Shown here piece after piece: positions 743 through 63,939 of a stretch of 64,000 nt of DNA. Where the stretch lies: NCBI GenBank assembly GCA_028716665.1, contig JAQUPP010000002.1, positions 139,717-203,716 on the forward strand, written 5' to 3'. The position numbers were made by a program, and so were the translations under genes. Numbering within the stretch: position 1 is the first letter of the stretch; the number at the start of each line of letters is the position of its first letter. This stretch comes from Patescibacteria group bacterium (lineage in GTDB: Bacteria; Patescibacteriota; Patescibacteriia; UBA2591; JAQUPP01). The notes under the pieces were generated by a model. It saw nothing but the letters and a program-made list of their open reading frames with translations, searched no databases and was not told the DNA's origin.

Positions 743-1057
743 AGAGTTTTGTCCCGCCCAAGTTTTCGCGAAGCGAAAATTTAGGCGGGCTACAAAACCT
801 TTACCCCCTCCTTTATCCCAACGATAAATTCTCGATAATCGTTAGGAATAAGGCGAAGCCGCTTCGCTTACGGCGTATCGTAAAAGGGTAGACCCCCGAT
901 GGAGTAAGGGAGGGGGTACTCAAATTTTTAGTAAAATTTTTCGCGTTATTGCCAAGCGAGTGAGAGAAAAGAAAATTTATTTTCTTTTCCGAGTAAGCGT
1001 AGGCAACACAGATCTGATAATCTTTATAAATAACTTAAAAATTTTAAAAAATTCGGT
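743..1057 (+). other. GC-rich highly structured intergenic element (candidate structured RNA / hisS leader), function unknown
   Basis: Nested hairpins (cccgcc...ggcggg, ttttcgc/gcgaaaa, ccccctcc...ggaggggg, gcgaagc/gcttcgc) in ~260 nt of atypically GC-rich sequence between lepB and hisS; no ORF. Confidence 0.3.
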
Positions 1058-2605: not shown

Positions 2606-2642
2606 AGAGTTTTGTCTCATTAAATTTTTAAATAATTTTGGT

Positions 2643-6560: not shown

Positions 6561-6752
6561 ATGTTTAAAATTCAAATAGACAAAGAAAAATGTATTGGCT
6601 GCGGAACTTGCGAAGCGGTCTGTCCGATTAATTGGGAAATGGGGGATGATGGCAAAGCCAAAATGATTAAAGACGAAATTGAAGATTTGGGCTGCAATCG
6701 TTTAGCGGAAGAAAATTGCCCGGTTCAAGCCATTAAACTTACGCCGCAATAA
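6561..6752 (+). CDS. 4Fe-4S ferredoxin
   Basis: CIGCGTCEAVCP cluster motif plus distal C...CP. Confidence 0.75.
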   Translation: MFKIQIDKEKCIGCGTCEAVCPINWEMGDDGKAKMIKDEIEDLGCNRLAEENCPVQAIKLTPQ

Positions 6753-6758
6753 AAAGTC

Positions 6759-6933
6759 GCGAAATTCACCTTCACTCAACGCTCCAAATCCTTGAAAATT
6801 AAAGTCGTTTTGCTTAAAGAAAAATTCATAACTCCTCTCCCGACTATAGCGGGATCGTCAAACAGATGAATTTTTCTGCAAAACTCCTTAATTTTCTAAG
6901 GCTTTTCCGCGACATCGTTCAGGTGAATTTCGC
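6759..6933. repeat. Interspersed ~175-nt repeat, copy A, with 12-bp terminal inverted repeats (gcgaaattcacc...ggtgaatttcgc); MITE-like or structured ncRNA
   Basis: Near-identical core shared with 33917-34089; internal hairpin cccg-actatag-cggg. Confidence 0.6.
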
Positions 6934-6984
6934 TAAAGCGTAATTTGTAGTATTCATAAAATTCATAGATTAGTATTATAACTT

Positions 6985-9434: not shown

Positions 9435-9586
9435 GACTTCGTAAGTTGGCGGACGCGAATTGCCGTGAAAATTTATAGTTATTAGTTAATGGTTTTTAGT
9501 CTTGGTTTATTGGTTGCCGGTTTCTAACTGACAACTGAATAACTATAACCAATAACTATGAACTAAAAACTATTATAAATACGCAT

Positions 9587-9946: not shown

Positions 9947-9999
9947 ACATTAAAAATTTGTTTAGAAATTAAAAATTAGAAATTAGAAATTTAAATCAT

Positions 10000-11223: not shown

Positions 11224-12396
11224 ATGGCTCAATCCAAAAATCAGTCGTCAAAGTTGGCGGTAAAAATAAAAGTTATTGGCATCGGCGGGGCGGGTGGAGC
11301 GACTATCGGCAGGCTGATTAAAGCTAAAATAAACAATATTGAATACGTCGCCATCAATACTGATTTTAAATCTCTGGATTCAATCAAGGGAAAAGTTCAA
11401 AAAATAAAAATAGGAAAAAAAATCACCAAAGGATTGGGAACGGGAATGAATTTGGAACTGGGCAGAATGGCTATTGAAGAAAGCATCAATGACGTGAAAA
11501 AATCTTTAAACAACGCTGACTTGATTTTTATCGTTTCCGGATTGGGCGGGGGAACGGGCAGCGTGGTAACGCCCATTGTGGCGGAATTGGCGAAAAAAAA
11601 TGGAGCTCTTGTTATCGGCGTAATGACTACGCCTTTTATTTTTGAAGGAGCTCAACGCAAGCATATTGCCGATGAAGCTCTTAAAAAAATAATTCATCGA
11701 GTTGACGCGATGGTTACCATTCCGAACAGCCGGCTTTTGCAGACCATTGATAAATCAACTCCTTTATTGGAAGCGTTTAATATTTCCAGCGAAATTTTAA
11801 AACAGGCGATAGAAGGAATTTATAATATTCTTAATTTGCCCGGTTTGATTAACATAGATTTTGTTGAAGTCAAAACGGTTATTGAAAACGCCGGAGAAAC
11901 AATACTCGGCATGGGCACGGCCGAAGGAGAGGACAGAGCCAGGCAAGCCGCAAAATTGGCCTTGGAAAATCCTTTAATAGATATTTCCATCAAGGGAGCG
12001 AAAAAAGTTCTTTGCACCATCAGCGGCGGACCGGATTTAACCATGAATGAAGTTTATGAAATCACTCAAGAAATCACCAATCAAATCGGAAAAGAGGCGC
12101 AAATTATTTTCGGCGCCGTAACAGATGATAATTTAAAAAATAAAGTTAAGGTGACGATTGTCGCCACGGGTTTCAGCCAATTGCATTCTTATACGCCAAT
12201 TTTTGAGCCGTTCCACAAAAAAGAATTTACCGAAACTCCACTGCCTCAAAAATCTTCAATTAAAGAAGAAAAAAAAGAAATATTGAAAATAGAACCGATT
12301 TCAAAACAGGAATATAAATCAAAGTTTCAAAACAACAGCGAATTGTCGGAAGATGAATTGGAAATTCCCGCGTATTTGAGAAAGAAAAAGATGTAA
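11224..12396 (+). CDS. ftsZ: Cell division GTPase FtsZ
   Basis: Tubulin signature GGGTGSVVTPIVAELAKK; C-terminal conserved tail EIPAYLRKKKM. Confidence 0.95.
   Translation: MAQSKNQSSKLAVKIKVIGIGGAGGATIGRLIKAKINNIEYVAINTDFKSLDSIKGKVQKIKIGKKITKGLGTGMNLELGRMAIEESINDVKKSLNNADLIFIVSGLGGGTGSVVTPIVAELAKKNGALVIGVMTTPFIFEGAQRKHIADEALKKIIHRVDAMVTIPNSRLLQTIDKSTPLLEAFNISSEILKQAIEGIYNILNLPGLINIDFVEVKTVIENAGETILGMGTAEGEDRARQAAKLALENPLIDISIKGAKKVLCTISGGPDLTMNEVYEITQEITNQIGKEAQIIFGAVTDDNLKNKVKVTIVATGFSQLHSYTPIFEPFHKKEFTETPLPQKSSIKEEKKEILKIEPISKQEYKSKFQNNSELSEDELEIPAYLRKKKM
12331..12396 (+). repeat. Direct repeat copy 1 (authentic ftsZ 3' end, 66 nt)
   Basis: Sequence aacaacagcgaattgtcggaagatgaattggaaattcccgcgtatttgagaaagaaaaagatgtaa recurs at 13391, 14847, 16866. 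Confidence 0.9.
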
Positions 12397-12418
12397 TTTA
12401 AGGTGAAATTATAGTCAA

Positions 12419-13386: not shown

Positions 13387-13390
13387 TATA

Positions 13391-13456
13391 AACAACAGCG
13401 AATTGTCGGAAGATGAATTGGAAATTCCCGCGTATTTGAGAAAGAGAAAGATGTAA
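13391..13456 (+). repeat. Direct repeat copy 2 of ftsZ 3' end (66 nt, 1 mismatch)
   Basis: Sequence identity to 12331-12396. Confidence 0.9.
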
Positions 13457-13667
13457 AATGAAAAAGCCCCCGATAGAGACGGAACTCTATAAGGGTCTTC
13501 TTCGTGGTGATATAATCATCTTATCAAATATAAAATTTTTGTCAAAACATTTATTGTGAATAAATTTCAAAATTTTTAGAAATAGTGAGTAGTATGTTGG
13601 AGTAAAATTTGATATAATTAAAAATTAACAGTTAATACTTGAACAGTAATAACTAACCAAAAAAATA

Positions 13668-14757: not shown

Positions 14758-14846
14758 GTATCTCAATGAATAAATTCATTGAGCGCGATTAATTAAAATA
14801 TAGCATATAATGTTAAAATTACAATAGGCCATTGTGGATAACCTCA

Positions 14847-14910
14847 AACAGCGAATTGTCGGAAGATGAATTGGAAATTCCCGCGTATTTGAGAAAGAAA
14901 AAGGGGTAAT
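14847..14910 (+). repeat. Direct repeat copy 3 of ftsZ 3' end (~64 nt; gatg->gggg change)
   Basis: Sequence identity to 12333-12396. Confidence 0.85.
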
Positions 14911-14983
14911 TTATCTTGCACTATTCCTTAAATAAACCGCGATAGAACAATAGAAGGGGAATAAATTAATTATAATATAAAAT

Positions 14984-16865: not shown

Positions 16866-16899
16866 TAATTCCCGCGTATTTGAGAAAGAAAAAGATGTA
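16866..16899 (+). repeat. Direct repeat copy 4 (partial, 34 nt) of ftsZ 3' end
   Basis: aattcccgcgtatttgagaaagaaaaagatgtag. Confidence 0.8.
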
Positions 16900-17070
16900 G
16901 TTTATTCCCTACCGGATTGACAATTTTTTATCGCTCAAATTCTAGCAGTTTGAATTAAAATTTTGCATAAGTTTTCAAAATATATTATTTTTTAAATGAT
17001 GATGAATATAAATGGATTATTGCACAATTTAATGAATAAGTGAGTTAAGAAATATAAGGTTCAAAATAGT

Positions 17071-25672: not shown

Positions 25673-27058
25673 TTTCTTGATAATTGATCCTTGCTCAGCA
25701 TCTTCCACCGTAAATCCTAAATCTTCAATTTTTTTGCGAACTTGGTCGGCTTCCGACCATTTTTTTTGTTTTCTTAATTCTTCCCGTTCTTTGGCCAAGG
25801 CAGATATTTCTTCCGGAATTTCTATCGGTTTTACTTTATCCAAATTTAATCCCAAAACTTGGTCAAACTTCAATAAAGTGGCCATTTTTTGTTCATCAGG
25901 ATATTTTTCTTTTAATAAATCCCAAACAACCGCCAAAGCTTTTGGCGTGTTTAAGTCATCGTTAATGGCTTGGTCAAATTTTTCTTCAACTTCTTTAATT
26001 ATGGTAGTTGGTTTAGGAAAATTTCCCACGATTTGATAAAGATTATTCAAAGCATTCTGAGCCGCAGTTAAACTTTCCAAATCAAAGGATAGGGGAGAAC
26101 GGTAATGAGTGTTTAAACATAAATAACGGAAAGCCAAAGATTGAAAATTTAAATTTTTTAATTCTGAAAGGGTATAAATTTCACCTTTACTTTTTGACAT
26201 TTTTCCGCCTTTAAACAAGAGCCATCTTATATGCAGCCAATAATTGACGAATTTTTTACCCGTGGCCGCTTCGCTTTGGGCGATTTCATTAGTATGATGA
26301 ATGGCAATATGTTCTTCACCGCCGGTATGAATGTCGAAATGTTCTCCCAGATATTTCATACTCATAGCCGAGCATTCAATATGCCAGCCCGGAAAACCAA
26401 TTCCCCAAGGGCTTTCCCATTCTTGCTGCCTTTTCGCTTGTCCTGAGCCATGAGCTTGTCGAATGGTCGAAGGGGAGAATTTCCAAAGAGCAAAATCAGT
26501 AATGTTCTTTTTTTCTTTCATCTCAATTCTCGCACCTGCCTCAAGCCCTTCTATTTTGAGTCCGGCCAATTTGCCATAATCTTTTAATTTGGAAGTGTCA
26601 AAATAAATTCCGTCAGAAGTTTTGTAAGTATATCCTTTTTCTTCCAATTTTTTTATCAATTCAATTTGTTCTTTAATATGTTCGGTTGCCTTGCACCAAA
26701 TATCGGGTTCGGAGATATTTAATTTTTTAAAATCATCTTTAAGAATTTGCCAATAATAATTGGCGATATCTTCCGCTTTTTTCCCTTCTTTGGCAGCCGC
26801 TTTTTCCATTTTATCTTCGCCTGTGTCCGCATCAGAAGTTAAATGTCCAACATCAGTTACATTGATAACATGCTTGATTTGATAATTATTGTAAATTAAG
26901 GTTTTTTTGAGAACATCGGCAAAAATATAAGCTCTTAAACAGCCGATGTGCTGATACCAATAAACCGTTGGGCCGCAAGAATAAATGCCGGCAAAACCGG
27001 GTTTAATCGGTTTAAATTCTTCTTTCTGGCGAGTGAGAGTGTTATAAAGTTTTAACAT
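25664..27058 (-). CDS. cysS: Cysteinyl-tRNA synthetase (with 12-16 aa insertion [13 protein letters not shown] before the GWHIECS zinc motif)
   Basis: Class I HIGH-like region ([17 protein letters not shown]), [14 protein letters not shown]. Confidence 0.92.
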
Positions 27059-28166: not shown

Positions 28167-29099
28167 ATGATTCAGGTTAAGAAAAATGTTTGTTTGGCGC
28201 CTTTGACCAGTTTTAAAATTGGCGGACCGGCCAAATATTTTTTGGAAGCCAAAAATGTTGATGAAGTTGCAGGGGGTTTGAAATGGGCCAAGAAAAATAA
28301 AATTAAATATTTTGTTTTGGGCGGCGGGAGCAATATATTGATATCGGATAGGGGATTTAACGGATTGGTGATAAAATTACTAATTACTAATTACAAATTA
28401 CTAAATAATAAATTAGTTGTCGGAGTTGGAACATCACTGGCCAAATTAGTCAGTACTTCAATTAAGGCCGGTTTAACTGGACTAGAATGGGCGGCAGGCA
28501 TTCCGGGCACTCTTGGGGGCGCAATATACGGCAATACGGGAGCCATGGGTCATTCTATTTCACAATCAGTGGAAAAGATAAAAGTTTTGAGAAACGGCAA
28601 GATAAAAAATTTAAAAAACAAAGACGCAAAATTCGCTTATCGGAAAAGTATTTTTCAAAAAAATAAAGATATTATTTTAGAGATTGAATTAAAATTGCAG
28701 AAAGGGGACAAGGAGGAAATTAAAAAATTGATAAAAGAAAATTTATTAAAAAGATCTCCAAATCAACCCCGTTATCCAAGCGCCGGATGCGTATTTAAAA
28801 ATTTCAGCTTAAGGCTGACCAGCCTCGGGCTGGCGAAATTATCAGAAAAGTACCCCGAGCTAGAAAATTTCAAGAAATCAGGCACGGTTTCAGCCGGCTG
28901 GTTGATTGAGAAATGCGGTTTAAAAGGCAAGCAAATCGGCCAAGCGCAAATCAGTGAGAAACATGCTAATTTCATAGTTAATCTGTGCAATGCCAGGGCC
29001 AAAGATGTTATTGCTTTAATCAATTTAGTCAAGAAAACAGTTAAAAATAAATTTAATTTTGATTTGAAAGAAGAAATACAATATGTCGATTTTAAATAG
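28167..29099 (+). CDS. murB: UDP-N-acetylenolpyruvoylglucosamine reductase
   Basis: FAD-binding N-term (LTSFKIGGPAKYF), GGSNIL, C-terminal MurB domain. Confidence 0.85.
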   Translation: MIQVKKNVCLAPLTSFKIGGPAKYFLEAKNVDEVAGGLKWAKKNKIKYFVLGGGSNILISDRGFNGLVIKLLITNYKLLNNKLVVGVGTSLAKLVSTSIKAGLTGLEWAAGIPGTLGGAIYGNTGAMGHSISQSVEKIKVLRNGKIKNLKNKDAKFAYRKSIFQKNKDIILEIELKLQKGDKEEIKKLIKENLLKRSPNQPRYPSAGCVFKNFSLRLTSLGLAKLSEKYPELENFKKSGTVSAGWLIEKCGLKGKQIGQAQISEKHANFIVNLCNARAKDVIALINLVKKTVKNKFNFDLKEEIQYVDFK

Positions 29100-33407: not shown

Positions 33408-33899
33408 ATGTCAAAAATGGATATCAAAAAATTCGGCGACTCTATCTTAAGAGTAAGATGCCAAGAAATAAAAAATATCGACGACCAGGTAAAAAAAACC
33501 GCCATGGAAATGTTGGAAACAATGTATCATGGCAGGGGAGTTGGGTTAGCCGCTCCTCAAGTTGGTCTTAATTGGCAGTTGGTTGTAATTGATGCGGGCA
33601 AAGGGCCTCTGGTTTTAATTAATCCAAAAATTATTCAAAAATCAAATATTTTGGTCAAAGGCGAAGAGGGTTGTTTAAGTTTGCCAAATGTGAGTTTAAA
33701 AATAAAAAGGCCTTCTTGGGTTGAAATAGAAAACAGAAATATTAAAACTGATAATATTCAAAAATTTAAAGCTGAGGGATTGTTGGCCAGAGTCATTCAA
33801 CACGAAATGGATCATCTTGAAGGAAAATTGATTATTGATCGAGTTCCATTTTGGGAAAAATGGTGCGCCTTGGGAAAATTAAAAACAAACATGAAATAA
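33408..33899 (+). CDS. def: Peptide deformylase
   Basis: GVGLAAPQVG, EGCLSLP, HEMDHLEG motifs. Confidence 0.92.
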   Translation: MSKMDIKKFGDSILRVRCQEIKNIDDQVKKTAMEMLETMYHGRGVGLAAPQVGLNWQLVVIDAGKGPLVLINPKIIQKSNILVKGEEGCLSLPNVSLKIKRPSWVEIENRNIKTDNIQKFKAEGLLARVIQHEMDHLEGKLIIDRVPFWEKWCALGKLKTNMK

Positions 33900-33916
33900 A
33901 TTGATAACGAATGGTG

Positions 33917-34089
33917 GCGAAACCCGCCTTCACTCAGCGCTCCAAATCCTTGAAAATTATACTCGTTTTATTTTTAAAAATTCATAACTCCTCTCCCGAC
34001 TATAGCGGGATCGTCAAACAGATGAATTTTTCAATAAAACTCCTTAATTTTCTAAGGCTTTTCCGCGATTTCGTTCAGGCGAATTTCGC
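33917..34089. repeat. Interspersed ~175-nt repeat, copy B, with terminal inverted repeats (gcgaaacccgcc...ggcgaatttcgc)
   Basis: Core near-identical to 6759-6933; ORF 33911..34126 in track is considered spurious. Confidence 0.6.
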
Positions 34090-34163
34090 CATAAGCATAT
34101 TTGATAATTTTGCGAGCGTAGTATAAGGGGTATTATGTCATCTTCTTTACCCCGTTAAATTTT

Positions 34164-34404: not shown

Positions 34405-35178
34405 ATGCCAAATTCAATGGAACAATTTGATTTTTTTGAATCAAAAAGTTTGAAAAAAACAAAGAATAAAAGAGAGGATGAACAAAAAATTGATACAAGT
34501 GTTATCTTGAAAAAAATAAAAACTCCTCGATTTAGAGAAGCCATTTATGGAGATGGCTTATTTGAGTCGCTCATTCATTTAGTTAAAGAGCTTAAAAAAG
34601 AAATGCCAAATTATGACACCATTCTTTCAGATGATATCAGCGGGCGAGAAGTTTCTCTATTATTACGGCGTTTAATCGATAAAAAAAGAACTGAATTGAA
34701 TAAGCCTCCGGTAAAAACTTATTTTTTAGCCTCCGGTCGCCATATAACTTATGAATCAAAAATTTTTGATGGTATTAAAAATTTTATAAAAAATGAAAAA
34801 GATCATTTGGGTAAGGTTTTATTAGTCACGGAATTTATTTCTTCGGGTGAGAGCATATCTAAATTAGTGAATATTTTAGAACAATTAGAAATTGATTTTG
34901 ACATAGCTGCTGTTTCTATGCAAAATTCACCTAAAGATGAGGGTTATCAGAATAATATTGGTTATTTAAATAAAAAAATTAAATACGGAGATGTTGGCAA
35001 GGGAGGGCTTGCTTTTCATGATCGAACGCAATCAATAGATAAAATATTTATATATGAAAAAGATATTTCAGCTCATCCTTATGTTAAACAAGATATTCTC
35101 AAAGAAGAACAAAAAGAAATAAAGGAATCACGCGAAGACGTGGAAGTTCTGGCGGAAGAATTATCCAAGTTTATTTAA
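34405..35178 (+). CDS. Hypothetical protein
   Basis: Long ORF, no recognised motif. Confidence 0.4.
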   Translation: MPNSMEQFDFFESKSLKKTKNKREDEQKIDTSVILKKIKTPRFREAIYGDGLFESLIHLVKELKKEMPNYDTILSDDISGREVSLLLRRLIDKKRTELNKPPVKTYFLASGRHITYESKIFDGIKNFIKNEKDHLGKVLLVTEFISSGESISKLVNILEQLEIDFDIAAVSMQNSPKDEGYQNNIGYLNKKIKYGDVGKGGLAFHDRTQSIDKIFIYEKDISAHPYVKQDILKEEQKEIKESREDVEVLAEELSKFI

Positions 35179-37145: not shown

Positions 37146-38120
37146 ATGACTCAAAAAGAAATTTACAATTTAGCCATTAAAATGGGCATTGAAGCGGATT
37201 TGCGAGGCAAAAAAATGGTTGAAAAAATAATGAAAAGAATCAATCAAAAATACGAGGCAATGTCTAAGGATCAAAAAGAAGAATTTGATGAAGAAAGATT
37301 GACTAATCCGTATTCCGATTCGCGTATTTTATTTGACCCTTCGACCATTCGACAAGCTCATGGCTCAGGGCAGGCAAAAAAGCAAATTAAAAGAATTTTA
37401 GTCGGCGTTGATATGGAAATAGGCGAACTTTTACTAGCCGACAAATTGGGTAATATTGATTTGGTTTTAGCGCATCATCCGGATGGTTGCGCTTTGGCCG
37501 GGCTGGACGATGTGATGAAACTTCAGGCAGACGTTTTAAATCTTTACGGCGTGCCGATTAATATTGCCGAGAATTTAATTCATATTCGCATGGAAGAGGT
37601 GAGTAGAGGGGTTTCTTCAGCTAATCACAATGAAGCCGTGGATGCGGCAAAATTATTAAATATGGGTTTTATGTGTGTTCATACTCCGTGCGATAATTTA
37701 GTGGCTGATTTTCTCAAGAAAAAAATAGAAAAAGAAAAACCGGAATTTGTTGAAGATTTATTGAAATTATTAAAAAGCATTCCTGAATATAAAGAGGCGA
37801 TTAAAATCGGAGTCGGGCCGAGGCTTTTTACCGGCAAATCGGAAAATCATTGCGGAAAAATTGCCTTAACCGAACTTACCGGCGGTACCGAAGGCTCGCC
37901 CGAAATTTACGAAAAATTATCTCAGGCCGGAGTTGGTACGGTGGTGGCCATGCATCTCAGCGAAAAACATGTTAAAGAAGCTATTAAAGCACACATTAAC
38001 GTAGTCGTGGCCGGGCATATTTCATCAGATTCGCTGGGCTTGAATTTATTTTTAGATAAACTTGCCAAACAAAAAATTGAAATCATTCCTTGTTCCGGAC
38101 TAATCAGAATAAAAAGATAA
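37146..38120 (+). CDS. NIF3/YbgI-family dinuclear-metal protein with N-terminal extension carrying [13 protein letters not shown] segment
   Basis: RILVGVD...DLVLAHHP...VVAGHISSDSLG motifs of NIF3 family. Confidence 0.7.
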   Translation: MTQKEIYNLAIKMGIEADLRGKKMVEKIMKRINQKYEAMSKDQKEEFDEERLTNPYSDSRILFDPSTIRQAHGSGQAKKQIKRILVGVDMEIGELLLADKLGNIDLVLAHHPDGCALAGLDDVMKLQADVLNLYGVPINIAENLIHIRMEEVSRGVSSANHNEAVDAAKLLNMGFMCVHTPCDNLVADFLKKKIEKEKPEFVEDLLKLLKSIPEYKEAIKIGVGPRLFTGKSENHCGKIALTELTGGTEGSPEIYEKLSQAGVGTVVAMHLSEKHVKEAIKAHINVVVAGHISSDSLGLNLFLDKLAKQKIEIIPCSGLIRIKR

Positions 38121-40836: not shown

Positions 40837-43335
40837 ATGACCAAAAAATTAGTTATACCTTTTAAAGATTTAACCATTAAAGACGTTCCCAGAGTTGGCG
40901 GTAAAAATGCTTCCTTAGGAGAAATGTATCAGAAATTAACGAAAAAAGGGATTAGAATACCAAATGGTTTTGCCACCACATCTGATGCTTATTGGTATTT
41001 TTTGGATGAATCAGGTCTCAAAAAAGGAATCAAAGAAATTTTAAAGGGCCTTGATGTAAAGGACATGAAAAATTTAATGACTCGCGGTAAAAAGATTCGA
41101 GAGTTAATTTTAAAATCAGAATTGTCTCAAGATTTAAAATCGGAGATTGTTAAATTTTATAAAAATCTCTCCAAAGAATACGGCGTGGAAAATGTGGATG
41201 TGGCGGTAAGAAGTTCTGCCACCGCTGAAGATTTGCCCGGTGCTTCTTTTGCCGGCCAGCAAGAAACTTTTTTAAATATTCATGGCGAAAAAGAACTTTT
41301 AATAGCAGTACTTAAATGTATTGCTTCTCTTTTTACTGACAGAGCTATTGTTTATCGAACAGAACAGGGATTTGATCATCTTAATGTGGCTCTCTCAGTC
41401 GGAGTGCAAAAAATGATTCGTAGTGATTTGTCTTGTTCCGGAGTAATGTTTTCTTGCGATACGGAATCCGGTTTTGCAGACGTGACGGTTATAAATTCAT
41501 CATGGGGATTGGGTGAAAATGTCGTGCAAGGAAAAGTCAGCCCAGACGAATTTATAGTTTATGAACCGTTGAATAAAGGCCAATTTAAGCCAATTGTCAG
41601 CAAGAAATTAGGTTTGAAAGAATGGACAATGACTTATGACAATAAAGGAAATAAATCGACAAAAAATTTGCGCACTGCTTTTGAAAAACAAAATAAATTT
41701 ACTTTAACTGATGAAGAAGTTTTGGAATTGGCGCGTTACTCGGTTATTATTGAAGAACATTATAAGCGGCCAATGGATATGGAATGGGCGAAAGACGGTC
41801 ACGATAAAAAATTATATGTTTTACAGGCAAGACCGGAAACAATCCAATCCAAAAGATCTCTTGATGTTTTGGAAGAATATGTTTTATCGGGAAAGGAAAT
41901 AAATTCACGAACTTTAGCGAGAGGTAAAAAGTTCTCGGCCCAAGGCCGATCCGCCTCGGGCGGAAGTGTTTTAACAACCGGCGTGGCAATTGGCAGTAAA
42001 ATCGGCACAGGTGAAGTTAATATTATTAAAACCGCAAAAGATATCAGTAAATTTAAACCCGGACAAATTTTAGTTACTGAAATGACTGATCCTGATTGGG
42101 TACCGATTATGAAAATCGCCAAAGCCATTGTTACTGATGCCGGCGGCAGAGTTTGCCATGCGGCGATTGTCTCTCGCGAATTGGGAATTCCTTGCGTAGT
42201 GGGTACGGGGAATGCCACTCAAAAAATTCATCAAGGACAAAAAATAACCGTTTCTTGTTCCGAAGGGGAACAGGGCTTTGTTTATAACGGTTTGCTGCCT
42301 TTTAAAATTAAAAAAACCGTGATTAAGGGTTTGAAAAGACCGAAGACAAAAATTATGATGAATGTCGGCGATCCGGAGCAGGCTTTTGCTTTTGGCTTGA
42401 TTCCAAATGACGGCGTTGGCTTGGCGCGAGAAGAATTCATTATTAATGATTATATTAAAATTCATCCTTTGGCGCTTATTCATTATTCGAAAATTAAAGA
42501 TAAAAAAATAAAAGAACAAATTAATAAAATTACCATTGGTTATTCTGATAAAGTTAAATTTTACGTTGATAAATTGGCCGAAGGCATTGCTCATATCGGC
42601 GCCGCGTTTTATCCAAAAGACGTAATTGTCAGATTTTCTGATTTCAAAACCAATGAATACGCGAATTTAGTCGGCGGTTCTTTGTTTGAACCGACGGAAG
42701 CAAATCCGATGATCGGCTGGCGCGGGGCTTCCCGTTATTACGGAGAAAAATTTAAACCGGCTTTTGAATTGGAATGCCAAGCGATTAAAAAAGTTCGCGA
42801 AGTGATGGGATTGGACAATGTGATTGTAATGGTGCCGTTTTGCCGAACCGTTAAAGAAGGGGAGGATGTGCTGAAAATTATTGACCAATACGGTTTGCGT
42901 AAAAATAAAAAAGGCATTAAACCTTTGAAGGTTTATGTGATGTGCGAAATTCCTTCCAATGTTATTTTGGGCGAGGAATTTGCCAAGATTTTTGACGGTT
43001 TTTCAATCGGCTCAAATGATTTGACTCAATTGACTTTGGGACTTGATAGAGATTCGGCTTTGGTGGCGCATTTATTTGACGAAAGAAATGAAGCGGTAAA
43101 AAGATTAGTTAAAAAAATTATTGAAATTGCTCATCAGTATAAACGAAAAGTTGGAATTTGCGGCCAAGCGCCAAGCGATTTTCCTGATTTTGCCGAATTC
43201 TTGGTTAAAGAAGGAATTGATTCCATTTCTCTTAATCCTGATACGGTGGTTAAGACTACGATGGATATTTTAAAGACCGAGAAAAATATTCGGCCCAAGG
43301 CCGATCCGCCTCGGGCGGAAAAGAAAAATAAATAA
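40837..43335 (+). CDS. ppsA: Phosphoenolpyruvate synthase / pyruvate,water dikinase
   Basis: PEP-utilising enzyme domains; GGRVCHAAIVSRELGIPCVVG phosphohistidine region; C-terminal TIM barrel. Confidence 0.88.
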   Translation: MTKKLVIPFKDLTIKDVPRVGGKNASLGEMYQKLTKKGIRIPNGFATTSDAYWYFLDESGLKKGIKEILKGLDVKDMKNLMTRGKKIRELILKSELSQDLKSEIVKFYKNLSKEYGVENVDVAVRSSATAEDLPGASFAGQQETFLNIHGEKELLIAVLKCIASLFTDRAIVYRTEQGFDHLNVALSVGVQKMIRSDLSCSGVMFSCDTESGFADVTVINSSWGLGENVVQGKVSPDEFIVYEPLNKGQFKPIVSKKLGLKEWTMTYDNKGNKSTKNLRTAFEKQNKFTLTDEEVLELARYSVIIEEHYKRPMDMEWAKDGHDKKLYVLQARPETIQSKRSLDVLEEYVLSGKEINSRTLARGKKFSAQGRSASGGSVLTTGVAIGSKIGTGEVNIIKTAKDISKFKPGQILVTEMTDPDWVPIMKIAKAIVTDAGGRVCHAAIVSRELGIPCVVGTGNATQKIHQGQKITVSCSEGEQGFVYNGLLPFKIKKTVIKGLKRPKTKIMMNVGDPEQAFAFGLIPNDGVGLAREEFIINDYIKIHPLALIHYSKIKDKKIKEQINKITIGYSDKVKFYVDKLAEGIAHIGAAFYPKDVIVRFSDFKTNEYANLVGGSLFEPTEANPMIGWRGASRYYGEKFKPAFELECQAIKKVREVMGLDNVIVMVPFCRTVKEGEDVLKIIDQYGLRKNKKGIKPLKVYVMCEIPSNVILGEEFAKIFDGFSIGSNDLTQLTLGLDRDSALVAHLFDERNEAVKRLVKKIIEIAHQYKRKVGICGQAPSDFPDFAEFLVKEGIDSISLNPDTVVKTTMDILKTEKNIRPKADPPRAEKKNK

Positions 43336-63137: not shown

Positions 63138-63197
63138 TTTGCAGAGCAAATTAGTAACCAATAACAAAAGACGAATAACTAATAACCACCAATAACT

Positions 63198-63554
63198 ATG
63201 TTTCGCTTTCAGAAATGGAATATTTATAATGAAACGAGAAAGTTAAGATTGGATATTAAAAGAAATTTATTACCAAAAATTTCATCTGCAGAAAAATATA
63301 TTTTAATACCTCAAATTGAGAGAGCAATTAATTCAATTATTTTAAATATTGCCGAGGGTTCATATAGAAAGTCTGATAAAGATTTTGCTCATTTTCTTAA
63401 TCAAGCGATAGCATCTCTTTATGAGGTTGTAGCCTGCCTTGATCTTATGTTGGATAGTTGTTATATTAATGAGGAAGATCATAGTAAATATTTGTTTCAA
63501 TTAGAGAATATCGCTAGACAAATTAGCGCTTTTACTCGATCATTAAAGAAATAA
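63198..63554 (+). CDS. Four-helix-bundle protein (TIGR02436 family, 23S-rRNA-IVS-type protein), stand-alone and flanked by short inverted repeats
   Basis: LNIAEGSYRKSDKDFAHFLNQAIASLYEV matches family signature; IRs aataactaataac (63170) / gttattagttatt (63563). Confidence 0.75.
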   Translation: MFRFQKWNIYNETRKLRLDIKRNLLPKISSAEKYILIPQIERAINSIILNIAEGSYRKSDKDFAHFLNQAIASLYEVVACLDLMLDSCYINEEDHSKYLFQLENIARQISAFTRSLKK

Positions 63555-63613
63555 TATTTTGTTATTAGTTATTTGTTCTTTGTTATTTGTAAAATTGTTT
63601 TAGCAATTTTTAT

Positions 63614-63939
63614 TCCGGCGTAGCTCAATGGTAGAGCAGCTGGCTGTCAAAAAAAGGCAGCCCTCCGAAGTAATTCGGGGTAGAAAAATAGGGTGAAATC
63701 GGGGAAACCCCACTGGGGCAATCCCGAGCCAAGCCTTAACCTATAAAGTTAAGGAAGGTGTAGAGACTATCCATTTATGGAGTAGCCGATCAACTTGTTG
63801 ATGTAGGCGAAGCGCCCTATCCCGCACAGAATTTAATATTTTATTAAATTCTACGGGAATGATATAGTCCACGCTTAGAAGCAATTCTAGGATAAGTGTA
63901 ACCAGCTTGTTGTGGGTTCGATTCCCTCCGCCGGAGCCA
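63614..63939 (+). tRNA. tRNA-Asn (anticodon GUU) interrupted by group I intron; exon1 63614-63647, exon2 63899-63936 (+CCA to 63939)
   Basis: Exons fold as tRNA with U1-A72, G73, D-stem gctc/gagc, anticodon stem gctgg/ccagc, loop cuGU|Uaa, T-arm gtggg-ttcgatt-ccctc. Confidence 0.7.
63648..63898 (+). ncRNA. Group I self-splicing intron (IC3-like, tRNA-intron family), 251 nt
   Basis: Hallmark P3/P7 sequences GGCAATCCCGAGCCAAGCC and AAGGTGTAGAGACTATCCATTTATGG (cf. trnL intron GCAAUCCUGAGCCAA / AGGUGCAGAGACUCAAUGG); P1 exon ggcugU pairs with intron gcagcc (U.G at splice site); intron ends with G. Confidence 0.75.

What the first reader, a model, noticed from the sequence alone, without database searches (positions are those of the whole stretch)
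6759..6933. Two-copy ~175-nt interspersed repeat with terminal inverted repeats and a compensatory change (MITE-like or small RNA)
Nearly identical ~175-nt elements lie downstream of the ferredoxin gene (6759-6933) and downstream of def (33917-34089). Each is bounded by 12-nt inverted termini, and the two copies differ there in a compensatory way: cacc/ggtg in copy A against cgcc/ggcg in copy B. That preserves pairing and argues for a functional stem, either an RNA structure or a TIR recognised by a transposase in trans. The core contains a conserved hairpin, cccg-actatag-cggg. The 71-aa ORF called in copy B is not conserved as an ORF in copy A, which has an in-frame stop.
Basis: seen in the sequence. 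Interest (0 to 1): 0.55.

Follow-up and report, generated by a model that had tools for sequence, protein, structure and literature searches.

The report
Mobile hairpin repeat after stop codons
The two ~175-nt repeats belong to a previously undescribed family of small mobile palindromic DNA elements in a Patescibacteria (CPR) lineage that always sit, in one orientation, a few bases after a gene's stop codon and evolve more slowly than silent sites in neighbouring genes, so they are probably not inert junk.

Summary
Copies at 6759-6933 and 33917-34089 are about 89% identical, have discrete ends, and each folds into one long hairpin. They are not a two-copy oddity. A metagenome scan found 16 more copies, giving 12 independent genomic sites in close relatives.

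Three sites are filled in some strains and empty in others, so the element is or recently was mobile. Stem pairing is kept by compensatory changes (9 pairs against 4.3 in shuffles). G·U and A·C mismatches are equally frequent, so no RNA strand is favoured.

The "conserved" apical hairpin cccg-actatag-cggg is specific to this genome. Relatives carry a shorter, different one.

Every copy with a readable left flank is co-oriented with the upstream gene, and the hairpin foot starts 4-9 nt after that gene's stop codon (17 nt in copy B). Orthologous copies diverge 6.5%, against 21% at four-fold sites.

There is no Rfam match, no coding signal, no target-site duplication at the resolvable junctions, and no transposase in the sequence held.

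Best reading: a new MITE/REPIN-like non-autonomous element, co-transcribed as an intercistronic hairpin and under constraint. How it moves and what it does are inferred, not shown.

The parts
6750..6752 (+). TAA stop codon of the ferredoxin gene (6561-6752). The insertion begins directly after it.
   Evidence: The empty alleles L015 and L016 keep the stop at the same place.
6753..6758 (+). Copy A left linker AAAGTC. The family consensus is (A)AGTGYC, between the stop codon and the hairpin foot.
   Evidence: Left flanks of the 12 independent sites share TAA-(A)AGTG-YC.
6759..6933 (+). Copy A, the long imperfect hairpin that forms the element body.
   Evidence: nhmmer E=2e-53.
6759..6771 (+). 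Copy A left terminal arm GCGAAATTCACCT. The outer 11-mer GCGAAnTTCGC is itself dyad-symmetric in the family.
   Evidence: Helix 1 has 5 covarying pairs.
6921..6933 (+). Copy A right terminal arm AGGTGAATTTCGC.
6820..6876 (+). Central block, 100% identical to 33976-34032 in copy B. It covers the AAAAATTCAT/ATGAATTTTT stem and the apical loop segments AACTCCTC and TCGTCAAACAG.
   Evidence: About 9 differences would be expected from the divergence of the rest (P about 4e-5). This suggests gene conversion or strong constraint.
6839..6853 (+). Apical mini-hairpin CCCG-ACTATAG-CGGG, specific to this genome.
   Evidence: In all 16 relatives it is replaced by the 8-nt-shorter CCTC-CCRAA-KAGG.
6934..6953 (+). 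Copy A right tail TAAAGCGTAATTTGTAGTAT. It belongs to the inserted unit but is more variable than the hairpin.
   Evidence: From 6954 onward the sequence aligns with the spacer of the empty allele L015 (16/19, p about 0.02). Tails show subfamily-level similarity between unrelated sites.
33897..33899 (+). TAA stop codon of def (33408-33899).
   Evidence: The stop is at the same position in the empty alleles L034 and L035.
33900..33916 (+). Copy B left linker ATTGATAACGAATGGTG, the longer form of the left end. It carries its own TGA-TAA.
   Evidence: Similar to the left ends of L026 (TTGATATAATAGAGTGTC), L018 (ATAACGAGTGCC) and L023.
33917..34089 (+). Copy B, the long imperfect hairpin.
   Evidence: nhmmer E=6e-54.
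34090..34139 (+). Copy B right tail. Its extent is uncertain. It lies between the hairpin and the remains of the ancestral def-tRNA-Gly spacer.
   Evidence: Comparison with the empty alleles L034/L035. Two alternative alignments of the junction are possible.
9947..9999 (.). Empty dagK-ftsA spacer in the window. A relative carries a family copy at this site.
   Evidence: L026 6039-6213 is filled. The window and L012 are empty.

Best explanation
The two repeats are members of a lineage-restricted family of non-autonomous palindromic mobile elements in a Patescibacteria genome, similar in kind to MITEs and REPINs. Each unit is about 180-240 bp.

**Shown.**
- A unit consists of a short left linker ((A)AGTGYC), a 165-175-nt imperfect hairpin whose feet are the dyad-symmetric 11-mer GCGAAnTTCGC, and an AT-rich right tail (TATAAGYR...).
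- Copies lie at 12 unrelated sites, and three sites are filled in some close strains and empty in others.
- Every copy with a readable upstream gene is co-oriented with that gene.
- The hairpin foot starts 4-9 nt after the upstream stop codon (17 nt in copy B).
- Pairing is maintained by compensatory changes.
- Resident copies evolve about 3 times slower than four-fold sites of flanking genes, and stems slower than loops.

**Inferred.**
- The element is mobilised in trans by an enzyme encoded elsewhere. Three features fit a single-strand, IS200/IS605- or RAYT-like route better than DDE cut-and-paste: no target duplication, asymmetric ends, and insertion directly 3' of TAA(A) in one fixed orientation on the lagging-strand-template strand.
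- Because it lies inside co-directional gene arrays, it is transcribed with them. The + strand RNA would then form a stable hairpin just past the terminating ribosome.
- In that position it most likely acts as an intercistronic mRNA structure, either a 3'-end protector or a processing site. The opposite orientation would place a hairpin plus U-run (CACUUUUAUU) in the operon transcript and so be counter-selected.
For: **Repeat and hairpin:**, plus 72 (L023 copy, -48.9 kcal/mol, z -6.4).

**Family:**
- The 20-mer TCGTCAAACAGATGAATTTT gave 17 metagenome loci, 16 of them true.
- nhmmer E-values run from 1e-53 to 1e-60, and no diverged extra copies appear in 315 kb.
- Flanks are unrelated outside the unit.

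**Mobility:**
- fdx-porG is filled in the window, L012 and L014, and empty in L015 (same sample, identical PorG) and L016.
- dagK-ftsA is filled in L026, and empty in the window and L012.
- def-tRNA-Gly is filled in the window, and empty in L034 and L035.
- The L026 dagK-ftsA copy differs from the L020 fdx-porG copy, 3 kb away in the syntenic map, at only 5 of 158 columns.
- Logan contig L004 breaks inside copy B on a variant typical of other copies.

**Structure under selection:**
- 52 pairs are 97.2% paired.
- 9 pairs and 21 cells changed on both sides, against 4.3 and 5.2 in shuffles (0 of 500 reach the observed values). Slid controls give 1-4 pairs.

**Orientation and stop codon:**
- All 10 independent sites with a callable upstream ORF are co-oriented (P about 1e-3).
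- The ORF stop ends 2-5 nt before the profile start.
- In L021 a canonical terminator follows the element, so the element lies inside the transcript.

**Constraint (six orthologous pairs):**
- Element divergence is 62/948 = 6.5% (stems 4.0%, loops 10.3%).
- Third codon positions diverge 17.2% (n=2513) and four-fold sites 21.4% (n=842).
- Fisher p = 2e-20 for element against four-fold sites. Stems against loops give p = 2e-4.

**Not coding:**
- All frames are broken and there is no protein homologue.
- Substitutions by codon position are 16/12/14, and 3 of 18 copies are frameshifted.

**Not a known RNA:**

**Strand:** the + strand is the G-rich strand that carries nearly all genes.
Against: - **No mobilising enzyme identified.** There is no transposase domain among 20 window ORFs or in the precomputed Pfam annotation of neighbouring contigs. 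No IS-like repeat appears in an all-against-all comparison of the held loci.
- **Insertion junctions are blurred.** They could be resolved only at two or three sites, between strains about 5% apart. 'No TSD' and 'inserts 3' of TAAA' therefore rest on very few, partly ambiguous alignments.
- **No expression data.** Transcription, the RNA hairpin and any effect on mRNA are inferred.
- **No RNA-strand signal.** G·U on the + strand (13 cells) and A·C (14 cells, which would be G·U on the - strand) are equally common. The structural constraint could act on DNA, as a single-strand hairpin or cruciform. It could also come from templated correction within a quasi-palindrome rather than from selection.
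- **Slow divergence has other possible causes.** It could partly reflect gene conversion between copies. The 57-nt block shared by A and B, but not by A's orthologue, shows that conversion happens. Ordinary intergenic tails are equally conserved at 6.6%.
- **Ascertainment.** All relatives were found through one exact 20-mer, so diverged members are missing.
Confidence: 0.68

Rival explanations
1. A purely selfish classical MITE. On this view it is a deletion derivative of a DDE-transposase insertion sequence, moved by cut-and-paste through its terminal inverted repeats, with no role for the host. Its position after stop codons would simply be the only place a compact genome tolerates it.
For: - It has 13-nt inverted termini with conserved outer GCGAA tips.
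- Its size is uniform, it occupies 12 dispersed sites, and it is polymorphic between strains.
- Spacers in this genome are short, so few insertion points are neutral.
- Inverted repeats can covary if both must fit one transposase.
Against: - No target-site duplication of 2 nt or more appears at the fdx and def junctions.
- The ends are asymmetric: a left linker against a roughly 20-nt right tail.
- Orientation is fixed at 10 of 10 sites, which cut-and-paste does not predict.
- Resident copies diverge 3 times slower than four-fold sites, and stems slower than loops, instead of decaying neutrally.
- No cognate IS is present in 315 kb.
Confidence: 0.17
2. A multicopy free-standing small RNA gene with its own promoter and terminator, on either strand, acting in trans. 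One possibility is action through the conserved apical loop: ACUCCUCC on the + strand, or GGAGGAGUUAUG on the - strand.
For: - The fold is stable and covarying.
- The unpaired apical segments AACTCCTC and TCGTCAAACAG are well conserved.
- On the - strand the hairpin is followed by a U-rich run (the left-flank consensus read in reverse).
- Sequence constraint is present.
Against: - No Rfam family matches.
- No sigma-70-like promoter or intrinsic terminator is called at either copy.
- On the + strand there is no room for a promoter between the stop codon and the hairpin.
- G·U and A·C are symmetric.
- Presence/absence between close strains at housekeeping loci, and 12 scattered sites, fit a mobile repeat better than a gene family.
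- The apical mini-hairpin is not conserved.
Confidence: 0.08
3. A small-protein gene: the 23-50-codon ORF that starts at the ATG in the right arm (MNFSIKLLNFLRLFRD...), carried on a repeat.
For: An ATG preceded by GAGG/TAGG about 10 nt upstream is present in all copies. The right arm is somewhat less variable than the left (diversity 0.10 against 0.15).
Against: - Substitutions are spread evenly over codon positions (16/12/14).
- Three of 18 copies are frameshifted.
- The C-terminus runs into unrelated flanks.
- A search with copy B's 71-aa ORF, which contains this peptide, found no protein homologue.
Confidence: 0.02
4. A segmental duplication or gene-conversion tract limited to this genome, with no family and no mobility.
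For: Only two copies occur in the window, and a 57-nt block is identical between them.
Against: Sixteen further copies lie at other sites in relatives, with sharp boundaries and unrelated flanks.
Confidence: 0.01

Closest known systems
REPINs (REP doublets forming hairpins), mobilised by RAYT tyrosine transposases; Bertels & Rainey 2011, PMC3116915
   Same: Both are extragenic, non-autonomous and dispersed. In both, two short palindromic end modules in inverted orientation make the whole unit a hairpin. Compensatory changes across the hairpin are common in REPINs too (PMC3116915). Both are vertically persistent rather than decaying.
   Different: The element here is about twice as long, and its whole interior is palindromic. 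Its end module is an 11-mer (GCGAAnTTCGC), not a 20-35-nt REP. No RAYT gene was seen. The strict stop-codon abutment and single orientation are not REPIN features I know of.
Correia repeat-enclosed elements of Neisseria and ERIC/RUP-type bacterial MITEs; PMC2649163, PMC2229807, PMC10969869
   Same: These are 100-200-bp inverted-repeat elements in transcribed intergenic regions that fold into long RNA hairpins. Correia elements bind or are cut by RNase III and alter expression of adjacent genes (PMC2649163, abstract). Strain-to-strain presence/absence is also seen.
   Different: Correia elements have a TA target duplication and occur in both orientations (from my own knowledge). Here no duplication is visible, the orientation is fixed, and no promoter consensus is created at the ends.
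IS200/IS605-family single-strand transposition and its miniature derivatives (from established knowledge; Barabas 2008 and Ton-Hoang 2010 as cited in PMC3116915)
   Same: Shared features are no target duplication, insertion directly 3' of a short fixed sequence, hairpins near both ends, asymmetric ends, and an orientation tied to the lagging-strand template.
   Different: Those elements have no long terminal complementarity, and their end hairpins are direct rather than inverted copies. The required Y1 transposase was not found in the sequence held. The target (TAA/TAAA) is inferred from only two or three junctions.
MIRUs of mycobacteria (Supply 1997, as summarised in PMC3184786)
   Same: Both are short repeats inside polycistronic operons, with ends that touch the adjacent genes' coding ends.
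   Different: MIRUs are 40-100-bp units that carry small ORFs overlapping the neighbours. Here there is no coding signal, and only the upstream stop codon is abutted.
REP/BIME as intercistronic mRNA stabilisers (Higgins 1982 and Stern 1988, cited in PMC3184786)
   Same: This is the proposed mode of action: a stable stem-loop just 3' of a cistron inside an operon.
   Different: The function is untested here. The element is far larger than a REP.

Membership tests
MITE (bacterial miniature inverted-repeat transposable element) | Short (under ~500 bp) and non-coding | tested here: met
   The unit is 180-240 bp. All frames are broken or unconserved, and there is no protein homologue.
MITE (bacterial miniature inverted-repeat transposable element) | Terminal inverted repeats | tested here: met
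   The arms are 13 nt, and the outer GCGAA/TTCGC is nearly invariant.
MITE (bacterial miniature inverted-repeat transposable element) | Many dispersed copies with discrete ends, polymorphic between strains | tested here: met
   There are 12 independent sites. Three sites show filled and empty alleles.
MITE (bacterial miniature inverted-repeat transposable element) | Target-site duplication flanking each copy | tested here: inconclusive
   No duplication of 2 nt or more appears at the fdx and def junctions. The filled and empty alleles are about 5% diverged, however, and the flanks are AT-rich. Some copies show imperfect ATAAG-like direct repeats on both sides.
MITE (bacterial miniature inverted-repeat transposable element) | Cognate autonomous IS with the same termini | tested here: not met
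   None was found in the window or in 315 kb of related loci. A whole-genome search is not possible with these tools.
REPIN / RAYT system | Two short palindromic REP modules in inverted orientation forming a hairpin with compensatory changes | tested here: inconclusive
   The dyad-symmetric 11-mers GCGAAnTTCGC sit at both feet and covariation is present. The interior is also palindromic, though, and the modules are shorter than REPs.
REPIN / RAYT system | A single-copy RAYT (Y1 transposase) gene flanked by the same REPs | not testable with these tools
   It was not seen in the sequence held.
IS200/IS605-type miniature element | No target duplication, and insertion 3' of a fixed tetra- or pentanucleotide | tested here: inconclusive
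   Both window insertions begin right after TAA(A) of the stop codon, and the empty alleles read TAAA|TC. Only two clean junctions are available.
IS200/IS605-type miniature element | Orientation bias relative to replication | tested here: inconclusive
   All copies lie on the G-rich strand that also carries the genes. Replication and transcription direction cannot be separated here.
Intrinsic (Rho-independent) terminator | GC-rich stem followed directly by a U run on the transcribed strand | tested here: not met
   No terminator is called at either copy. The + strand hairpin is followed by UAUAAG, and L021 has a separate canonical terminator downstream.
Any Rfam 15 RNA family (6S, SRP, riboswitches, ribozymes, sRNAs) | Covariance-model score at or above the gathering threshold | tested here: not met
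   There is no hit on the elements in the window or in 16 loci. The best sub-threshold hits are microRNA models that match any long hairpin.
MIRU-like intercistronic repeat | Small ORF in the repeat overlapping the stop and start codons of the neighbours | tested here: not met
   The upstream stop is abutted, but there is no conserved frame or coding signature. Distance to the next start varies between 13 and 56 nt.
Integron attC site | Imperfect palindrome 3' of promoterless cassettes next to an IntI integrase | not tested
   Considered only. The flanking genes are core housekeeping genes in conserved synteny (fdx, porG, def, dagK, ftsA), which is not the context of a cassette array.

The most novel reading that the evidence does not exclude
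Stop-codon docking may be a property of the element, not a by-product of selection. On this reading the element is inserted specifically at translation stop sites by a mechanism not yet described. Its hairpin foot, 4-9 nt past the stop, is the same spacing as recoding stimulators and would place it at the ribosome's mRNA entrance during termination. It would then work as operon punctuation in these minimal CPR genomes, coupling termination of one cistron to stability, processing or re-initiation of the next.

Two observations fit this reading. A second, unrelated hairpin family begins at the same position after stop codons and occupies the very same fdx-porG site in another strain. Resident copies are also under purifying constraint.
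Probability: 0.15. Interest if true: 0.75.

Novelty: new member of a known kind. Interest (0 to 1): 0.45.

Why it matters
Patescibacteria have tiny, tightly packed genomes and are usually described as poor in mobile DNA. I found no description of a MITE- or REP-like family in them: literature searches and Rfam both came back empty.

This family shows that small palindromic elements do move in such genomes. It also shows an unusually clean pattern: one orientation, docked on stop codons, conserved above the silent-site level, with a second family sharing the niche. If the constraint reflects a host function, these hairpins would be a cheap, transposable way to shape operon mRNAs in organisms with few regulators.

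In practice they break short-read assemblies (contigs L004 and L008 end inside repeats) and generate spurious ORF calls such as the 71-aa one.

Tried and rejected
**Searches that found nothing useful**
- The exact apical 20/21-mer (CCCGACTATAGCGGGATCGT) gave 0 hits in viral contigs and 0 in metagenomes. It gave two chance hits in high-GC coding DNA in the genome collection. In hindsight this was the least conserved part of the element, and it cost the only genome-collection scan.
- A protein search with the 71-aa ORF, intended to catch spurious ORF calls on related copies, returned nothing.
- Viral contigs searched with two conserved blocks gave nothing.
- blastn of the consensus against phage and plasmid collections gave nothing.
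- Rfam returned nothing relevant at the gathering threshold or at E up to 10.

**Ideas tested and dropped**
- Minus-strand RNA. Copy B suggested it, because TT>CC gives G·U only on the minus strand. The variant in L012/L020 shows the opposite pattern, and family-wide counts are 13 against 14.
- Small-protein gene. Rejected on codon-position counts and frameshifts.
- Outward promoter in the TATAAG right end. There is no consensus hit and the critical last T is missing.
- Element-borne start codon or ribosome-binding region for the downstream gene. This was raised by the second family, but the shared AT-rich motif is also present in the empty spacer, so it is native.
- Integron attC and retron ncRNA. 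Rejected on context: core syntenic genes, and no integrase or reverse transcriptase nearby.

**Attempts that did not resolve**
- A target-site duplication could not be settled at the dagK-ftsA site. Local alignments were no better than shuffles.
- A partner IS was sought through the terminal 11-mer and through all-against-all blastn. This turned up only orthologous synteny and one solo site.

Full report
**1. The observation**

- Copy A (6759-6933) follows the ferredoxin gene (6561-6752).
- Copy B (33917-34089) follows def (33408-33899) and precedes tRNA-Gly.
- They are 88-89% identical over about 185 nt with one 2-nt indel. Sensitive blastn and a 23-mer search with 3 mismatches find no third copy in the window or in about 10 kb of extra sequence from the same organism.
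- The 13-nt termini are complementary, and the cAcc/ggTg versus cGcc/ggCg difference is compensatory. So is GTTTTGC/GCAAAAC versus GTTTTAT/ATAAAAC.
- The element is more than a pair of TIRs. The whole unit is an imperfect palindrome that folds into one long hairpin on either strand, with MFE -55 to -72 kcal/mol and z from -5.5 to -8.6.
- No frame is open in both copies, and the 71-aa ORF of copy B has no homologue among 5.8 billion proteins.

**2. Host and context**

The window has 35% G+C and a uniformly positive GC skew, and virtually all genes lie on the + strand. NCBI calls the closest proteins 'Patescibacteria group bacterium'. Identical sequence occurs in two NCBI MAGs and in Logan assemblies. 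Neighbouring genes are ordinary housekeeping genes, and none of the ORFs tested carries a transposase domain.

**3. It is a family**

My first pattern scans used the apical hairpin and failed. That hairpin turned out to be the least conserved part. Looking up contigs that encode a 98%-identical PorG gave a close relative carrying a variant element at the same site (L012, L014). It also gave two contigs with a 28-31-nt spacer and no element: L015, from the same sample with an identical PorG protein, and L016, a 67%-identical relative.

A block conserved in A, B and the variant (TCGTCAAACAGATGAATTTT) then retrieved 17 metagenome loci. Sixteen are true copies, from two IMG metagenomes. With the window copies this makes 18 sequences at 12 independent sites, five of them sampled in two or three strains. 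A profile search of all 315 kb held finds these and nothing weaker.

Similarity stops sharply on both sides. To the left of the hairpin only a short linker (consensus (A)AGTGYC) is shared. To the right a motif TATAAGYR and about 10-20 more loosely similar bases are shared.

All 16 relatives lack the window's cccg-actatag-cggg and carry the 8-nt-shorter CCTC-CCRAA-KAGG. Copy A's orthologue (L020) has the short form, yet shares A's arm variants. A and B share a 57-nt identical centre despite 16% divergence elsewhere (P about 4e-5). This indicates gene conversion between copies within the window genome.

**4. Mobility**

Three sites are polymorphic among strains whose flanking genes are about 94-98% identical:
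- fdx-porG
- dagK-ftsA, filled in L026 and empty in the window at 9947-9999 and in L012
- def-tRNA-Gly, filled only in the window and empty in L034/L035

The dagK-ftsA copy of L026 differs at only 5 of 158 columns from the fdx-porG copy of L020. That is closer than L020 is to its own orthologue in the window.

At fdx and def the native stop codon is unchanged and the insertion begins immediately after TAA(A). For fdx, the ancestral spacer resumes about 20 nt after the hairpin (16/19 match, p about 0.02). That defines an inserted unit of about 6753-6953. I see no duplication of 2 nt or more at these junctions, but the alleles compared are too diverged for a firm statement, and the dagK-ftsA junction is unalignable. 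One solo site in L028 (AAGTGA-GCGAATTTCGC-TATAGAG on the minus strand) looks like a left linker, a single terminal 11-mer and a right motif. It could be a deletion footprint between the two near-identical dyad-symmetric feet.

**5. Structure**

RNAalifold gives a 52-pair consensus, and 97.2% of cells are paired. Nine pairs (21 cells) changed on both sides, against 4.3 pairs (5.2 cells) in column shuffles, with 0 of 500 shuffles reaching the observed values. Partner-slid controls give 1-4 pairs. Five of the covarying pairs lie in the terminal helix.

Variation is concentrated in bulges (one bulge column shows all four bases), internal loops and the apical loop. The data do not pick an RNA strand. 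Cells that are G·U on the + strand number 13, and cells that are A·C (G·U on the - strand) number 14. The same balance, 8 against 7, holds for substitutions that arose after insertion.

**6. Position and orientation**

At all 10 independent sites where an upstream ORF can be called, the element points the same way as that ORF (P about 1e-3). The ORF's stop codon ends 2-5 nt before the profile start. That puts the stop 4-9 nt before the hairpin foot, or 17 nt in copy B, whose longer linker carries its own TGA-TAA. The two sites at contig edges show the same TAA-AGTGTC junction.

The next gene starts 13-56 nt after the profile end and is usually co-directional. In L021, where the next gene is convergent, a canonical terminator follows the element, so the element lies within the transcription unit. 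On the + strand the hairpin has no U run after it and is not called as a terminator. Read on the - strand, it is followed by CACUUUUAUU.

**7. Constraint**

Six orthologous pairs give 62 substitutions in 948 comparable sites, or 6.5%. Stems diverge 4.0% and unpaired columns 10.3%. Flanking genes in the same pairs differ at 17.2% of third codon positions (n=2513) and 21.4% of four-fold sites (n=842). The differences are highly significant:
- element against four-fold sites, p = 2e-20
- unpaired columns alone against four-fold sites, p = 2e-6
- stems against loops, p = 2e-4

Paralogues differ by only about 10%. Resident copies are therefore not decaying neutrally.

Three caveats apply. Ordinary spacer tails are equally conserved (6.6%). 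Conversion between copies occurs. Templated correction within quasi-palindromes could also lower stem divergence without selection.

**8. What it is not**
- Not a known RNA.
- Not a protein gene. The ORF from the right-arm ATG shows 16/12/14 substitutions by codon position, three frameshifted copies and flank-dependent C-termini.
- Not present in phage, plasmid or viral collections.
- Not a segmental duplication.

**9. Interpretation**

The element is a non-autonomous mobile palindromic element, closest in kind to REPINs and to Correia/ERIC-type MITEs. Several features fit single-strand (IS200/IS605- or RAYT-like) transposition better than DDE cut-and-paste: no visible duplication, asymmetric ends, insertion 3' of TAA(A), and one orientation on the lagging-strand-template strand. 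No enzyme has been found, though, and orientation with respect to replication cannot be separated from orientation with respect to transcription here.

Because copies lie inside co-directional gene arrays, the + strand is almost certainly transcribed with them. A stable hairpin starting just beyond the ribosome's footprint at the stop codon is the classic arrangement of REP-type intercistronic stabilisers. The reverse orientation would look like a terminator, which may explain the orientation lock. These functional steps are inference.

**10. Side finding that bears on the interpretation**

A second, unrelated hairpin family (TAAAGAGT-TTTGTCCCGCC...GGCGGGC) also starts right at stop codons.
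- It sits after lepB in the window (about 743-930).
- It sits after hisS in L012. There the window keeps only an 11-nt left-end remnant (AGAGTTTTGTC, 2606-2616).
- It sits in the very fdx-porG spacer of strain L026.

One spacer thus exists in three states among close strains. The stop-codon-proximal position is a general niche, or target, for hairpin elements in this lineage.

Noticed in passing
window 743-~930 (also L012 4894-5131, L012 3213-~3260, L026 9040-9185 minus strand): There is a second palindromic repeat family, TAAAGAGT-TTTGTCCCGCC-YAAGTTTTYGCGAAGCGAAAAKTTWGGCGGGC. It is often followed by a second long hairpin, TTTACCCCCTCC...GGAGGGGGTAC. It begins right at stop codons and sits at different sites in the window and in its close relative. 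In strain L026 it occupies the same fdx-porG spacer that holds the studied element in the window. Logan contig L008 ends inside the window copy.
   Followed up: partly
window 2606-2642: The hisS-miaB spacer starts with AGAGTTTTGTC, the first 11 nt of the second family. The rest of that element is absent here, although L012 has the full ~230-nt copy at this site. This looks like a deletion footprint.
   Followed up: partly
window 9435-9586: A 152-nt insertion lies between ybeY and dagK. It is absent from both relatives (L012, L026), where the two genes abut. It contains inverted ATAGTTATTAGTT / AACTATAACCAATAACTAT motifs that resemble the repeat GTTATTAGTTAT at 63157-63186 / 63561-63590.
   Followed up: no
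L028 4790-4815 and 4816-4990: A solo terminal 11-mer carries both junction motifs (rc: AAGTGA-GCGAATTTCGC-TATAGAG). Next to it is a ~170-nt G+C-rich, apparently structured region ending in a terminator-like hairpin, upstream of trpS. There was no Rfam hit at the gathering threshold.
   Followed up: partly
window 26427-26474 and 37337-37384: A 48-nt inverted repeat, 92% complementary, has its arms 10.9 kb apart. One arm lies inside the minus-strand cysS gene.
   Followed up: no
window 41927-41965, 43282-43320, 28796-28834: A G+C-rich 39-nt repeat (..GGCCCAAGGCCGATCCGCCTCGGGCGG..) occurs in three copies inside or at the ends of coding regions (PPDK, MurB) of this 35% G+C genome.
   Followed up: no
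window 12330-12400, 13390-13460, 14843-14913, 16867-16904: Four successive features share a near-identical 38-67-nt 3' end (..GAATTGGAAATTCCCGCGTATTTGAGAAAGAAAAAGATGTAA). One of them is the end of ftsZ. This suggests a repeated C-terminal coding module.
   Followed up: no
window 63638-63891: A group I intron (Rfam RF00028, 75.5 bits) lies just downstream of a gene annotated in a sister contig as a 23S-rRNA-intervening-sequence protein (63198-63554). It is flanked by the inverted repeat at 63157/63561.
   Followed up: no
window 34405-35178: A 257-aa ORF with no Pfam match sits between the tRNA pair and the ABC-transporter gene. It is absent from the close relative L034, so this neighbourhood differs between strains by more than the repeat.
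   Followed up: no
window 1030-1057, 2617-2642; L012 3360-3387, 5105-5131: Several unrelated genes are preceded by the same AT-rich motif, AAATTTTAAAWAATTNGGT-ATG, instead of a Shine-Dalgarno sequence. It may be a lineage-specific translation-initiation or promoter signal.
   Followed up: no
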